Origin: Octopus sinensis
Taxonomy: Eukaryota
NCBI RefSeq assembly: GCF_006345805.1
Contig: NC_042998.1
Location: forward strand, 53,134,001 to 53,198,000
Length of the DNA stretch: 64,000 bases
Reading direction: 5' to 3'
Positions 3,054-51,004 of the stretch are shown one piece after another (the stretch's first letter is position 1; each line of letters opens with the position of its first letter). A program made the translations under genes and the position numbers. The notes below the pieces were generated by a model. That model was not told the DNA's origin. It searched no databases and was given only the letters and a program-made list of their open reading frames with translations.

Positions 3054-3379
3054 TAAAAAAAAACAGTGAAGAAAACATTAAATAAATAAAAAAAAAACAT
3101 GATGGCCATGGCTGAAATATCTTTGATCAAAGTCCTGCATACTTAGTGCTAACCAGGTTCTAATGAACAATAACAAAAAAATGATTATCCTAAGATTTAC
3201 CTTAAAAAATGTGAAACAAACTTCAAGTAGATCAGATAATTCATTGCAGGTTTACAGACCAGGATATCAAGCATAATGGCCTTGTTTAGAAAGTGCTAGA
3301 TGATATGAAGAATATCTGAACTTACAACTTCTCTAGTCAACTCAAGATGAGAATCTATAACTCTTTAGCATTCAGATTA

Positions 3380-3510
3380 CTCTGTCAAATGACCATACCA
3401 GTGCAATCGTCTCTCTTGCACACCACATCTGACACCTTTTCTGCCCAACTTTTCTCTCAAGATGCTTACACATTGCACAACCAGTGGAGCAATTGGGCCT
3501 CATCAAGAAA
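3380..3510 (-). mobile_element. RTE LINE ORF fragment
   Basis: Reverse complement aligns by eye to 49610-49700 (ttgagagaaaagttg...tgtggtgtgcaagagagacg...tggtatggtcat). Confidence 0.75.
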
Positions 3511-3596
3511 TGAATTTCTCAAGACAAGCTTCTTCACTTAAATGTATATTTTGTATATATGTTTGACAATTTTTGAGGTATTTGTTTCACAAGGGA

Positions 3597-3842
3597 TCAT
3601 CATCATCATCATCATCGTCGTTTAGCGTCCGTTTTCCATGCTAGCATGGGTTGGACGGTTCTACTGGGGTCTGTGAAGTCAGAAGGCTTCATCAGGCCCA
3701 GTCAAATCTGGCAGTATTTCTACGGCTGGATGCCCTTCCTAACGCCAACCACTCCGTGAGTGTAGTGGGTGCTTTTTACGTGCCACCCGCACAGATGCCA
3801 GACAGAGCTGGCAAACGGCCACGAACGGATGGTGCTTTTTAT
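3597..3842 (-). mobile_element. RTE LINE 3' terminal fragment with (GAT)n tail
   Basis: Near-identical to the reverse complement of 50780-51002, including one 62-bp repeat unit. Confidence 0.85.
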
Positions 3843-5067
3843 ACATTATATAGATATTATCACCATCATTTATTGTCTACTTTATCATGTTTGCATGGCT
3901 GAGATGGAATTTGTTGTAGTAGATTTTTTAGTTAGACGCCCTTCCTGCTGCCAGCTCCCACCTTTATCCAGCAAGGTAATATTTTCCCCACAACTTGACA
4001 TGACTTTCAAGAAAGACTGGAAACAATGACAGTGATGTTCATTTACACCCTCATTATTCCAAGTTTTAATTGTCATGTATAGTGTTTTGATTGATTCTGT
4101 AATAAGAACCAGACTGACAAAATGCTGATGTTCCATTCAACATCATGTCATGAAATATTTGGTTGTCTGACAGAAAAAAATAAACAGAAAAAAGAAGCCA
4201 CTGACACACTCATGTCCTCAGCTATTGATCCTATTTTTAATTCTTTCATTCACAATGCTTTGGTTCTTGACCTTATATGTAGCCTAGTTTAACACACTAC
4301 CAGCTCGACTTTGGTTACCTTTAACAGCATCCACTTTATAGATTTGAAGGTAATTTGGCTGCTATTTCTATGAGGTCTCAAGCAGATGGATAACACCCTC
4401 TTTTCTTCTTTTCAGTCTTGGAAGCCATTATAACGGTCATAGGACTTCTCTTTAAGGATCACTATCTCTTGAAGATCTTTAAAAGGGTTATAGAAACTTT
4501 CCTTCCTCCTCTGAAGACATAAAAATGGTATGAACATACTCTCAAATCATTTATCAATGCCTTGTTTTTCTATTTTACAAGCCTGTAAAACACAGAACCT
4601 TATCACAGATTCTTTCAACATATTGCAATATATTGCCAGATGTTATGTGTTCTTTGCTAAAAATCTTCCTTTACAAAGTGGTATGGTATTTGTGTTTATA
4701 TTTTCATCTATCATTAATAATCCTTTCTCTGTAAATAAACAGATGTCAAAGGTTATAATTTTTAGCATCATATTTCATTATTGATTTATTTTGTTATCAT
4801 TTTATCTTTTATTGATCAAGTTTCACTATAAACATTAAAAACATCGATCAAACAAATGTCAAATAGTTTTCAAAAGAGATCTTTCTGCTTGTCCCTCAAC
4901 TCAACATCAAGTATAAACGGCTTTGAAAGAAAATACTAAAATACATTATTCAAAAGTAAGTTTCTATTCTGAAATTTTCACATCACCCTTTCAGCTGTTA
5001 CTGTCTTCAACATCTCAGCAGGCTCCAGATAAAATTTTTAAAAGTTCAACACTTTATGAAGTCACAT

Positions 5068-11004: not shown

Positions 11005-11248
11005 AGTTACATTTGACGGATATTTGTTTTCATCTTGTTTGTTGTTAACACAGCATTTCAGCTTATGTACCCTCCAGCCTTCATCAAGTATCTTGGGGAA
11101 ATTTTGAGCCCAGTTTCGAAATTTCCTCAAGACACCTGATGAAGGCTGGAATGTATATCAGCCGAAACGTTGTGTTAACAACAAACAAGATGAGAACAAA
11201 TATGCATCAAATCCAAATAATGTACAAAATTCCTCATCTCTTAAACAT
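11005..11248. mobile_element. Fold-back Penelope-type element
   Basis: Arms ~11010-11104 and ~11118-11212 are diverged inverted repeats. The right arm holds a hammerhead. Confidence 0.75.
11131..11176 (+). ncRNA. Minimal type-I hammerhead ribozyme
   Basis: gacac-CTGATGA-a-ggctg-gaatgtatat-cagcc-GAAAC-GTT-gtgtt. Stem III is only the ACGT palindrome. Confidence 0.75.
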
Positions 11249-38140: not shown

Positions 38141-39216
38141 GAGTATATGTATACATACATATATATATATATGCATACACATATATATACATATATATAC
38201 CTATATATATACATACATATACATACTCATATGTACATACATAGTATACATACATATACATACATACACATACATACATACATATACACACATACATATA
38301 TATATACATACATATTTATATATACATACATACATATATATATACATATACATATATATACATACATATATATATATACATACATATATATACATACACA
38401 CATATACATACATATATGTATATACATACACATGCATATATACATACATATATATATGTATGTATATATATACATACATATACATACATGCATATAATTT
38501 CAGATGCATGTACAACCAAGAAAGAATATTTTTGCTTATAAATATAACTAAAAAGAAATCAAAGGTTGCTGAGAAAACACAAATAAGATGCACAATAAAG
38601 AGCAGTTTGGTCTGTTTTATTACCAACATAAATTTCACATTGCACTTCAATAAAAGCATTATATAATAACATCAAAGGACTTAGAAAAAAAATCAGCTGA
38701 GAGTGAACAATGTCATAGGTACTTTTCAGCAAATTTCCTTCTGATGTGTCCAATATTGTTCCGGATTCATTTGAGTTAGGAACTAATTTAACTAAAACAA
38801 CTATATCAGATACAGGTATATCTGTGTGGCTAAAAGAGTCCCTTTGTAATCAAATGGTTTTGGGTTTGATCCTTTAAATTCCTTTTTTTCCCCACACTAT
38901 GGTAACTTAGGTAGGTGATTTTTACTGTAGACTTGGATTGGCCTCTATCTTTTGAAATGGTGTGGAAGGTTGTCATATATATATATATATCAGAAATACT
39001 AAATTTCTAAATCTCTCATAGAGACATGTACGATGGTGGGGCGATAGAATGGTTGTATACTGTCAATCTAACACGAACGTGACAGTAGGGGAGTATACCA
39101 CCACTGTATAGCCCTAGGAAGCATCAACACCTCCTGATGGCTTGGACACATTTTTCCTGTGTCCTTATATACATTTACGAAGGGGAGACAAATACCCCCA
39201 GCCATCTGGGCTGCAT

Positions 39217-39259
39217 CTAGGGACACGTGTTTCAGGATGATTGTCCTTCATCGGCCTAG
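39217..39259 (-). ncRNA. Hammerhead-fold motif, variant core CCGAUGA
   Basis: Minus strand: ctagg-CCGATGA-agga-caatca-tcct-GAAAC-acgt-GTC-cctag. Confidence 0.75.
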
Positions 39260-39577
39260 AGTAGCAGACACCGGTCAGCTGACGATACCTGTCTCAACTC
39301 GTAATGTATATATCTAAATTTCAGTGAAGTCTATTCACTGATTATCAAAATCAGAAGTACTAAATTTCTAAATCTCTCGTAGAGACATGTACGGTGGTGG
39401 GGCGATAGAATGGTTGTATACTGTCAATCTAACACGAACGTGACAGTAGGGGGGTACACCACCGCTGTTTAGCCCTAGGAAGCATCGACGCCTCCTGATG
39501 GCTTTGACACATTTTTCCTGTGTCCTTATATACATTTACGAAGGGGAGACAAATACCCCCAGCCACCCGGGCTGCAT

Positions 39578-39620
39578 GTAGGGACACGTGTTTCAGGATG
39601 ATTGTCCTTCGTCGGCCTAA
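39578..39620 (-). ncRNA. Hammerhead-fold motif, variant core CCGACGA
   Basis: Minus strand: ttagg-CCGACGA-agga-caatca-tcct-GAAAC-acgt-GTC-cctac. Confidence 0.75.
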
Positions 39621-39792
39621 AGTAGCAGACACCGGTCAGCTGACGATACCTGTCTCGACTCGTAATGTATATATCTAAATTTAAAAATTTAGTATTTCTG
39701 ATTTTGATAATCAGTGAATAGATTTCACTGAAATTTAGATATATACATTACAAGTCAAGACAGGTATCGTCAGCTGACCGGTGTCTGCTACA

Positions 39793-39835
39793 CTAGGCCG
39801 ACGAAGGACAATCATCCTGAAACACATGTCCCTAG
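39793..39835 (+). ncRNA. Hammerhead-fold motif, variant core CCGACGA
   Basis: ctagg-CCGACGA-agga-caatca-tcct-GAAAC-acat-GTC-cctag. Confidence 0.75.
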
Positions 39836-40000
39836 ATGCAGCCCAGGCAGCTGGGAGTATTTGTCTCCCCTTCGTAAATGTATATAAGGACACAGGAAAA
39901 ATGTGTCAAAGCCATCAGGAGGCATCGATGCTTCCTAGGGCTAAACAGCGGTGGTGTACCCCCCTACTGTCACGTTCGTGTTAGATTGACAGTATACAAC

Positions 40001-40041
<41 letters not shown>

Positions 40042-40199: not shown

Positions 40200-40413
40200 A
40201 TATTTTATAATTATATACATAATTATTACAAGGGATTGGCTTTACACCTCACCATGCACGCCAAATGCCAAATAGACGCCAAATGCCCTATTACCACCTT
40301 AAAATCTTGGAGAGTTTAAGGTGGTAATAGAGCATTTGGCCTTTATTTCTACAGTGCTTCATGAGGCATAAAACCAATCCCTTGTTATAATTATGTATAT
40401 AATTATTAAATAT
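40200..40413. repeat. Long imperfect hairpin
   Basis: gccaaatgccctattaccaccttaaa / tttaaggtggtaatagagcatttggc, with outer arms ataattatatacataattat..caagggattgg / ccaatcccttg..ataattatgtatataattat. Confidence 0.85.
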
Positions 40414-40437
40414 GTTATACATATATGTATATATATT

Positions 40438-40918
40438 GTCACCCCCATATTTCAAGATTTCTGCACAGATTCCATCAGACTCTGGAGACTTATTGTTATT
40501 CAGCTTATTAACAGCTAAGTAAATGTCATTTAGAGTTGGTTCAAATGCCATCTCTTCTATAACCAGAAGGTGTTTAATTTTTTCTACCATCCTCAAGAGA
40601 TTGCAGACCTGTTTCAGAATGACTGATAAGATCACAATTGTCAGCATATTAAAGTTCCCTATATGTCTATGCATACCATTGAATGCAGTGTATGCCAGAA
40701 GGTTTGCAAATCTAGCAAAGGCCTCAAAAGACATTTTAAGATCCACAAAGATCAGAAATTATCAGCAGCTCTTGGTGGTTCAAATCAGATATGCAATCTG
40801 TATGGGTGTCTTTTTAGAATATTTGTCTGGTTTAAAAAGCCACATCAGATGCCATGATGGTTCTAAGGTATAGGTACAGGAGGTGGTCAAACTCTGCATA
40901 AGGAGTAGACAACCACCA
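40438..40918. mobile_element. RTE-like LINE remnant with inverted 5' piece
   Basis: Minus ~40438-40560: EPTLNDIYLAVNKLNNNKSPESDGICAEILKYGG (start of RT). Plus ~40600-40860: CSVCQKVCKSSKGLKRHFKIH and GLKSHIRCH (C-terminal C2H2 fingers). Confidence 0.7.
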
Positions 40919-49898: not shown

Positions 49899-50179
49899 TC
49901 AGGCCATAACCCGTGGCCCCTACCTGGGACGTAGTCAGTCCACCTGTGCATACCTTCCTTCTTGTGATACTTGTGAAGACCTGTTGAGGCAAGTGAAAAT
50001 CAAACAAAATCAAAATAGATGAACATCAATGGAATTTGTATCCTTGTGGTATCAGTGCCGGTGGCACACAAGAAAACCATCCGAACGTGGCCGTAGCCAG
50101 TACCGCACCGACTGGCCTCCATGCTGTGGGCACGTTACAATCACCATCCAATCGTGGCCGATCGCCAGCCTAATCTGGC

Positions 50180-50836
50180 TCCTGTGTCGGTGGCACATAA
50201 AAAACACCATCTGAGCGTGGTCGTCTGCCAGCCTTGTCTGGCACCTGTGTCGGTGGCACATAAAAACACCATCCGAACGTGGCCGTTCGCCAGCCTCGTC
50301 TAGCACCTGTGTCGGTGGCACATAAAAATAAAAAACACCATCCGAGCGTGGTCGTCTGCTAGCCTTGTCTGGCACCTGTGTCGGTGGCACATAAAAACAC
50401 CATCCGAGCGTGGCCGTTCGCCAGCCTCGTCTGGCACCTGTGTCGGTGGCACATAAAAACACCATCCGAGCGTGGTCATCTGCCAGCCTTGTCTGGCACC
50501 TGTGTCGGTGGCACATAAAAAAAAAAACACCATCCGAGCGTGGTCGTCTGCTAGCCTTGTCTGGCACCTGTGTCGGTGGCACATAAAAACACCATCCGAG
50601 CGTGGCCGTTCGCCAGCCTCGTCTGGCACCTGTGTCGGTGGCACATAAAAACACCATCTGAGCGTGGTCGTCTGCCAGCCTTGTCTGGCACCTGTGTCGG
50701 TGGCACATAAAAACACCATCCGAGCGTGGCCGTTCGCCAGCTTCGTCTGGCACCTGTGTCGGTGGCACATAAAAACACCATCCGAGCGTGGTCGTTCGCC
50801 AGCCTCGTCTGGCACCTGTGTCGGTGGCACATAAAA
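50180..50836 (+). repeat. 62-bp minisatellite, about 10.5 units, in the RTE 3'UTR
   Basis: cacctgtgtcggtggcacataaaaacaccatccgagcgtgg[ccgttc/tcgtct]gccagcct[c/t]gtctgg. Confidence 0.95.
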
Positions 50837-51004
50837 TCACCCACTACACTCTCGGAGTGGTTGGCGTTAGGAAGGGCATCCAGCTGTAGAAACACTGCCA
50901 GATCTGACTGGCCTGGTACAGCCTTCGGGCTCCCCAGACCCCAGTTGAACCGTCCAACCCATGCTAGCATGGAAAGCGGACGTTAAATGATGATGATGAT
51001 GATA

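What the first reader, a model, noticed from the sequence alone, without database searches (positions are those of the whole stretch)
38989..40006. Tandem 361-nt retrozyme-like element with a variant hammerhead core (CCGAYGA) in all three copies
Seen: two head-to-tail units, each with a hammerhead fold on the minus strand (GUC sites 361 nt apart), plus an inverted third unit, no ORF, embedded in (TA)n. All three cores read CCGAYGA instead of CUGANGA while stems I/II, GAAA and the stem-III/GUC site are intact (palindromic ACACGUGU in two copies). Known: metazoan non-LTR retrozymes and Penelope pLTRs carry minimal type-I hammerheads whose palindromic stem III favours dimeric cleavage, and tandem copies yield monomeric or circular RNAs; U4 is normally near-invariant. 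Inference: a recently mobile non-autonomous ribozyme retroelement that may produce a 361-nt linear or circular RNA, using either a natural U4C variant or a damped ribozyme.
Basis: partly seen in the sequence, partly recalled or inferred. Interest (0 to 1): 0.85.

Follow-up and report, generated by a model that had tools for sequence, protein, structure and literature searches.

The report
Penelope-borne retrozyme with altered hammerhead core
This is one copy of a several-hundred-copy, protein-free jumping repeat whose hammerhead ribozyme motif carries C instead of the usual U at core position 4 in nearly all copies; it likely rides on Penelope-type retrotransposon enzymes and likely still cuts itself slowly, but neither cutting nor expression has been shown.

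Summary
The locus is a 1.9-unit tandem arm (minus strand, 38989-39682) plus an inverted arm (39679-40006) in (TA)n. It holds three type I hammerheads that read CCGAYGA. C4 is family-wide: 284 vs 6 exact genomic matches, and the U4 copies fit ordinary CpG decay. [quoted passage not shown] Corrections: the hammerhead is canonical rather than minimal, copies 2 and 3 are damaged, and U4C is a known variant that cleaves in viroid-like RNAs. New here: two unrelated hammerhead repeat families in this genome are also mostly C4 (7,487 of 11,393; 89 of the first 100 of 1,879), while an older sister family keeps U4. An ORF1-only element inserts at one fixed site in the unit. Best reading: a non-autonomous PLE-mobilised retrozyme with a slowed, dimer-dependent ribozyme and probably a circular template. 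No cleavage or RNA data were obtained, and no autonomous partner was found.

The parts
38989..39682 (-). Main arm: 694 nt, 1.92 head-to-tail units; 5' end truncated at unit position q262, 3' end at the fixed point q233 (q1 = first base after the GUC site)
   Evidence: 96 of 214 arms end at q225-244
39222..39582 (-). Cut-to-cut 361-nt monomer, the predicted linear/circular RNA; folds into a branched rod
   Evidence: -129 kcal/mol, z -6.0, 0 of 100 shuffles as stable; circular fold z -7.8 on 60 shuffles
39211..39267 (-). Intact type I hammerhead: C3 39254, variant C4 39253, palindromic stem III, C17 39222
39572..39628 (-). Second hammerhead (C4 at 39614, C17 at 39583) with a mismatch inside stem I
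39679..40006 (+). Inverted 5'-truncated arm, 328 nt (q210 to q176; family end point q178)
   Evidence: 90 of 214 arms end at q168-180
39785..39841 (+). Third hammerhead (C4 at 39799, C17 at 39830); outer stem I pair and stem III palindrome lost
38989..39043 (-). [quoted passage not shown]
   Evidence: 46 of 66 inverted pairs have one q178 and one q233 end; PLE tail described in PMC8557442
38975..38988 (.). Left (TA)n target flank
40008..40037 (.). Right (TA)15 target flank

Best explanation
This locus is a copy of a dispersed, protein-free 361-nt repeat family with a type I hammerhead motif fixed for C at core position 4, and it is likely a retrozyme copied by the reverse transcriptase and GIY-YIG endonuclease of a Penelope-like element, likely from a circular RNA made by slow, dimer-dependent self-cleavage. 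Steps: (1, inferred) a rare copy with two in-phase hammerheads, such as this one, is transcribed through both. (2, inferred) The two hammerheads pair through their self-complementary stem III and cut after GUC; U4C slows but does not abolish this. (3, inferred from other animal retrozymes) A host ligase closes the 361-nt monomer. (4, end geometry shown, enzyme inferred) The PLE enzyme nicks (TA)n, primes at two fixed points 55 nt apart, one per DNA strand, and copies past the ligated cut site. This gives more-than-unit tandem arms and an inverted, 5'-truncated second arm. My odds: PLE-mobilised non-autonomous element about 0.9; ribozyme still cleaves about 0.65; circle is the template about 0.5.
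For: PLE geometry: 186 of 214 arms end at two fixed 3' points, 109 of those 186 run straight into (TA)n against 1 of 28 other ends, and all 66 inverted pairs are 3'-out. This matches PLE features in PMC8557442. Young PLEs with 781-codon RT + GIY-YIG frames exist in the genome, and the one printed ends in (TA)n. Reverse transcription crosses the cut site: 46 of 70 arms sampled by a downstream anchor extend more than 10 nt past it, and only 3 of 70 stop within 5 nt of it. Constraint on the fold: 40 of 348 columns differ between four subfamily majorities, but 0 of 12 core positions do. In the 57-nt hammerhead only N7, two loop-2 bases and one stem I pair change, and that pair changes on both sides (G-C 115, A-U 18; one clade, one event). 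All three stem III variants co-fold as dimers. A CCGA-core hammerhead self-cleaves in vitro with a RACE-mapped site (10.64898/2026.09.16.752053). U4C in a viroid lowers activity but keeps infectivity (PMC3088659). Tandem units within one arm share rare variants (5 shared, 81 unshared) more often than nearest other loci do (10, 498).
Against: No cleavage or RNA evidence was obtained. No autonomous PLE shares DNA with the unit: best matches were 17-19 nt in 30 GIY-YIG loci and 17 longer PLE stretches. A systematic screen found low activity for all single mutants in the CUGA turn of one hammerhead (PMC9901934). 8 of 9 predicted frog retrozyme dimers did not cleave. Crossing the cut site is equally expected if the RNA is never cut. 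Zero core changes in 12 positions is not significant alone, the subfamilies were defined by those same variable sites, and part of the sample was picked by exact core patterns. Two of the 5 shared tandem variants come from one locus (L016) whose units are almost identical. The long rod shows no covariation beyond shuffles (1 compensatory vs 0.3 expected; 10 broken vs 10.1).
Confidence: 0.55

Rival explanations
1. The ribozyme is dead or irrelevant. U4C was fixed in a master lineage, and the element moves as uncut read-through RNA, with PLE template jumps regenerating tandems. The hammerhead shape persists by descent or as a binding site for the PLE protein.
For: No pile-up of 5' ends at the cut site (5 of 214 arms at q358-q5). 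Naiad PLEs thrive without canonical hammerheads (PMC8557442). C4 strengthens a predicted non-productive pairing of the core with loop 3. The CUGA turn is mutation-intolerant in one screen. Composite copies up to 5.9 kb were apparently moved whole (L084).
Against: Only structure-neutral changes in the hammerhead across subfamilies that differ at up to 32 of about 347 columns. A two-sided stem I change and three self-complementary stem III variants. CCGA cores cleave in other natural RNAs.
Confidence: 0.3
2. C4 is positively selected as a lock. C3-C4-G5 pairs with loop 3 so that the single hammerhead of the monomer circle stays off, and the lock opens only when loop 3 is used for dimer pairing in the multimeric precursor.
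For: In same-locus natural pairs the C4 copy's mispaired fold is 2.2 kcal/mol more stable than the U4 copy's (-17.0 vs -14.8; L033, L099). C4 is kept in all four subfamily majorities, while 14 of 25 CpG sites changed between them. U4 revertants arise at the CpG rate but stay rare. PMC7229834 notes that circles need an unknown block.
Against: Folding-model prediction only, without tertiary contacts. U4 copies are also predicted to mispair (0.4-0.9). One small U4 clade did spread (L037, L041, L044). The two other C4 families have no such loop 3. 11 of 25 CpGs were kept, so keeping this one is unremarkable.
Confidence: 0.2
3. It is the detached terminal repeat (pLTR) of an autonomous PLE or of the ORF1-bearing longer element, not an independent retrozyme.
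For: Retrozymes derive from pLTRs in frogs (10.64898/2026.07.22.740005). 14 of 214 arms continue upstream into an ORF1 cassette.
Against: Perfect unit-to-unit tandems with nothing between. The cassette has its own AATAAA end and a 17-nt duplication of the target, occurs as stacked dissimilar copies, and also occurs in other targets. No RT frame was seen in the 15 loci translated.
Confidence: 0.08
4. It is a satellite or MITE-like repeat spread by DNA-level mechanisms.
For: Tandem and inverted arrangement.
Against: Fixed 3' ends with variable 5' truncation, short arrays (longest arm 790 nt) and dispersal over many chromosomes are retrotransposition signatures.
Confidence: 0.03

Closest known systems
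Metazoan non-LTR retrozymes (Cervera and de la Pena 2020, PMC7229834; mussel 350-390 nt, axolotl 330/350 nt)
   Same: Size, no ORF, tandem units, one canonical type I hammerhead per unit, palindromic stem III, strongly self-paired monomer, coexistence with PLEs.
   Different: Core reads CCGA family-wide. Arrays are short and dispersed, with PLE-type inverted arms and a tail in (TA)n. Cleavage and circles were shown there and are untested here.
EN+ Penelope-like elements, Neptune-type, and their non-autonomous derivatives (PMC8557442; 10.64898/2026.07.22.740005)
   Same: Partial tandems, inverted 5'-truncated arm, one-sided tail, (TA)n targets, hammerhead in the repeat.
   Different: No RT-endonuclease. 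Tail is 55 nt rather than 30-40. Hammerhead is canonical rather than minimal. No DNA similarity to any sampled autonomous PLE.
U4C (CCGA) hammerheads of viroids and viroid-like RNAs (PLMVd variant as cited in PMC3088659 and PMC9608096; zeta virus ZV1 and betaviroid-like RNAs, 10.64898/2026.09.16.752053)
   Same: Same single core change, with all other core bases kept.
   Different: Those reported for ZV1 and the betaviroid-like RNAs are type III motifs in RNA replicons, where one strand or a few variants carry the change. Here it is the majority state of type I motifs in three high-copy genomic repeat families of an animal.

Membership tests
Non-LTR retrozyme | Short (150-450 nt) non-coding tandem unit, no LTR/PBS/PPT | tested here: met
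   361 nt, no meaningful ORF; no LTR pair seen; PBS/PPT not searched separately
Non-LTR retrozyme | Type I hammerhead in each unit, two in phase | tested here: met
   Sites 361 nt apart; only 6 of 214 arms hold two whole hammerheads, this locus among them
Non-LTR retrozyme | Highly self-paired monomer | tested here: met
   z -6.0; covariation in the rod not above shuffles
Non-LTR retrozyme | Self-cleavage and linear/circular RNA in vivo | not testable with these tools
   No read data obtained; needs in vitro transcription and RNase R / northern
Hammerhead ribozyme type I (RF00163) | Core C3 U4 G5 A6 N7 G8 A9 / G12 A13 A14 / A15.1-U16.1, H17 | tested here: not met
   All positions met except U4, which is C; a known tolerated variant, so 'works like' stands
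Hammerhead ribozyme type I (RF00163) | Three stems (6-bp I, 4-bp II, short palindromic III) and Rfam score | tested here: inconclusive
   Stems present in the intact copy; 14.4 bits, below gathering 34, as is a natural U4 copy at 17.4
Penelope-like element (autonomous) | RT plus GIY-YIG ORF | tested here: not met
   No ORF
PLE-mobilised non-autonomous element | Partial tandems, inverted 5'-truncated arm, one-sided tail, microsatellite target | tested here: met
PLE-mobilised non-autonomous element | Shared terminal sequence with an autonomous partner | tested here: inconclusive
   None in 30 + 17 PLE stretches drawn from the top 150 of 5,029 GIY-YIG candidates, mostly one family

The most novel reading that the evidence does not exclude
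U4C is not decay but a selected throttle on retroelement hammerheads in this animal lineage. Three unrelated families, together about 10,000 copies, converged on CCGA, a class that CUGANGA-only surveys would miss. In this family C4 also locks the lone hammerhead of the circle by pairing with loop 3, so cutting happens only in the dimeric precursor. The circle in turn carries a site-specific ORF1-only parasite, some copies of which were A-to-G hyper-edited as RNA and written back into DNA.
Probability: 0.2. Interest if true: 0.8.

Novelty: new variant of a known kind. Interest (0 to 1): 0.55.

Why it matters
The family supplies natural C4 and U4 copies in the same context, even at one locus, so the effect of U4C on a tertiary-type animal hammerhead can be measured directly. 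It bears on an open question: whether PLE and retrozyme hammerheads must cut for the element to move, and how a circle avoids re-cutting itself. It also shows that strict CUGANGA searches undercount hammerheads in some animal genomes by thousands. The fixed two-ended geometry over 200 arms is genomic evidence that a PLE enzyme moves a retrozyme, a link so far argued from co-occurrence and terminal-repeat phylogeny in the papers I read.

Tried and rejected
Expression: the run search listed no RNA holder on record, which is no evidence either way. Autonomous partner: none found. L042/L233 shares only a similar hammerhead. Linear cut monomer as the template: rejected, since 5' ends do not pile up at the cut. 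C4 as a private lesion: rejected. An ancestral U4 subfamily inside the family: rejected, since U4 copies are scattered among C4 clades (midpoint-rooted FastTree of 145 segments, supports not examined) and occur at the CpG rate, 6 of 131 vs 109 of 1,797. Rod covariation: not above shuffles. ORF1 cassette as the element's own gene: judged unlikely. It had no homologue at E<=0.001 among proteins of near length. Rfam microRNA hits are TA repeats and the inverted junction. Earlier scan findings: nothing. Ambros and Flores 1998 and Lunse et al. 2017 were not held.

Full report
Verdict. The feature is real and belongs to a dispersed retrozyme family with Penelope-type insertion geometry. Its hammerhead carries C at core position 4 throughout. 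That change is known from viroid-like RNAs. I found no report of it as the majority state of animal genomic families, and no cleavage or RNA data could be obtained here.

Observation. The minus strand carries a 694-nt arm (39682 to 38989) of 1.9 units with period 361. An inverted 328-nt arm follows on the plus strand (39679-40006), and both ends run into (TA)n. Three type I hammerheads read CCGAYGA, with C17 at 39583, 39222 and 39830. Only the 39222 copy is undamaged. The fold has a 6-bp stem I, an internal loop and four more pairs, a 4-bp stem II with a six-base loop, and a short palindromic stem III. This matches the 'canonical' metazoan form as described in PMC4209133 (I read parts 1-2 of 4), not the minimal PLE form. 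That the loops make tertiary contacts is inferred. Rfam Hammerhead_1 aligns end to end but weakly (14.4 bits; a natural U4 copy 17.4; gathering 34). The host is a 2.72-Gb animal genome with about 34% GC in this window. I take it to be a cephalopod from recalled repeat types, which no call tested.

C4 is a family trait. Exact 20-mers gave 284 C4 and 6 U4 matches, with controls at 0. A pattern open at position 4 gave 514 matches; of the first 100 listed, 92 were C, 7 T and 1 A (hand count). Position 4 is a CpG. U4 occurs in 6 of 131 segments, against 109 of 1,797 at other CpGs (loci fetched for being U4 were left out). U4 copies are scattered among C4 clades, with one small U4 clade of three loci. 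An older family sharing q52-115 at 71-75% identity in 11 of 25 loci has CUGA in 16 of 18 detected hammerheads, CAGA in 2 and CCGA in none. So U4 is likely ancestral.

C4 recurs. Two sequence-unrelated hammerhead repeats, seen by chance in flanks, are also mostly C4: 7,487 of 11,393 exact matches and 89 of the first 100 of 1,879 (hand count). Both sit near ends that run into (TA)n, as PLE termini do (12 loci of each read). The youngest autonomous PLE family sampled carries a U3-A8 core instead.

How it moves. Position q1 is the base after GUC. Of 214 non-redundant arms from 156 fetched loci, 96 end at q225-244 and 90 at q168-180, while 5' ends are spread over the unit. All 66 adjacent inverted pairs point 3'-out, and 46 of them pair a q178 end with a q233 end. 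Partial tandems, an inverted 5'-truncated arm, a one-sided tail and (TA)n targets are PLE hallmarks (PMC8557442, passages). The genome holds PLEs with intact 775-883-codon RT + GIY-YIG frames. None of the sampled ones shares DNA with the unit, so the partner is inferred. Among 70 arms sampled by an anchor downstream of the cut, 46 extend more than 10 nt past it, 3 stop within 5 nt, 20 stop 18-45 nt short and 1 stops 7 nt past. A cut linear monomer is therefore not the template; a circle or an uncut multimer is. Only 6 of 214 arms hold two whole hammerheads, so length must be regenerated by rolling-circle copying or template jumps. Shared rare variants between tandem units (5 shared, 81 unshared) resemble those between the two arms of one insertion (16, 212) and exceed nearest other loci (10, 498). 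The numbers are small, and two events come from one locus.

Does it cut? For: across four subfamily majorities 40 of 348 columns differ, none of them among the 12 core positions. Within the hammerhead only N7, two loop-2 bases and the stem I closing pair change, the pair on both sides in one clade. Stem III has three lengths, all self-complementary. These points are weakened by sampling on core patterns and by defining subfamilies on those sites. A CCGA-core hammerhead of zeta virus ZV1 self-cleaves with a RACE-mapped site (10.64898/2026.09.16.752053, passages). The viroid U4C variant is described as much slower in vitro yet infectious (PMC3088659, passages and section 8) or as unaffected (PMC9608096, one passage). 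The original paper was not held. CYGANGA descriptors are already in use (PMC13481778, passages). Against: CUGA-turn mutants were low in a pairwise screen (PMC9901934, passages), and 8 of 9 frog retrozyme dimers were inactive (10.64898/2026.07.22.740005, parts 1-3 of 5). Folding predicts that C4 strengthens a non-productive core-to-loop-3 pairing in the monomer by up to 2.2 kcal/mol. That could mean death or a lock that opens in the dimer.

Mechanism. I commit to a PLE-mobilised retrozyme with a slowed, dimer-dependent hammerhead and a ligated circle as template, following the life cycle proposed in PMC7229834 (parts 2-4 of 6). Shown: anatomy, copy counts, end geometry, read-through of the cut site. 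Inferred: transcription, cleavage, ligation, identity of the enzyme. This particular copy is mildly decayed (5 of 334, 15 of 348 and 10 of 291 sites off the subfamily majority) and may no longer be a source.

A passenger. 14 of 214 arms continue upstream into a 1.75-kb cassette with one frame of about 450 codons. It has a zinc knuckle (PF00098, E 8e-4, just under the curated cut-off) and Atlas neighbours among CCHC and ZCCHC3-like proteins (0.91-0.92). It ends in AATAAA, is flanked by a 17-nt duplication of q294-310 (L092, L159), stacks in tandem, and uses other targets elsewhere. It looks like an ORF1-only, target-specific LINE derivative; the HAL1/Tx1 likeness is recalled and untested. The site is empty at this locus.

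Novelty. Eight answered paper searches found no description of this family or of C4-majority hammerhead families in an animal genome. The library lacks most subscription papers. I did not open supplementary alignments, and Lunse et al. 2017 on PLE hammerhead variants was not held; any of these may already list C4 families. PMC6765202 and PMC3376415 (passages) added background only. Rating: a new variant of a known kind, interest 0.55.

Noticed in passing
L084 (G000:C1:73589057-73596763), also L092, L101, L113, L159-L162, L171, L184: An ORF1-only 1.75-kb element (zinc knuckle, AATAAA end, 17-nt target duplication) inserts at one fixed site about 20-35 nt upstream of the hammerhead core, up to three copies stacked; related copies target another repeat; 151 matches among 149 scored of 14,460 candidates.
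   Followed up: partly
L084 plus-strand about 3100-4630 compared with about 1320-2790: One ORF1 cassette copy differs from its neighbour by 96 A-to-G changes among 117 substitutions (1 G-to-A); an outgroup has A at 62 and G at 22 of 92 such sites. This looks like ADAR hyper-edited RNA written back into DNA, with the frame still open.
   Followed up: partly
L260-L271 and L272-L283, L191: Two further hammerhead repeat families with mostly CCGA cores (11,393 and 1,879 exact matches); PLE-like ends into (TA)n; the larger has about one third U4 with little decay at neighbouring CpGs, so probably two subfamilies.
   Followed up: partly
L235-L259: Older sister repeat family with a canonical CUGA hammerhead, an AUA cleavage triplet and a palindromic stem III, homologous over q52-115.
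   Followed up: partly
L217-L228: Young PLE family with a 781-codon RT + cysteine linker + GIY-YIG frame, an overlapping upstream 479-codon frame, and a U3-A8 covariant hammerhead core near its (TA)n end.
   Followed up: partly
window 39165-39171 and 39526-39532 (minus), unit q51-57: TATA-like box at the start of the stretch shared with the older sister family; a possible internal promoter. Many 5' ends also cluster just upstream, at q19-46.
   Followed up: no
window about 11131-11180 (+): A separate minimal-type hammerhead with a canonical CUGAUGA core.
   Followed up: no
window 40291-40746 (-) and 40663-40857 (+): A frame that looks like a LINE reverse-transcriptase remnant (motif recalled) overlapping a C2H2-like frame on the other strand.
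   Followed up: no
window 50142-50841: GC-rich 62-nt tandem array, 11 copies, with a 192-nt higher-order period.
   Followed up: no
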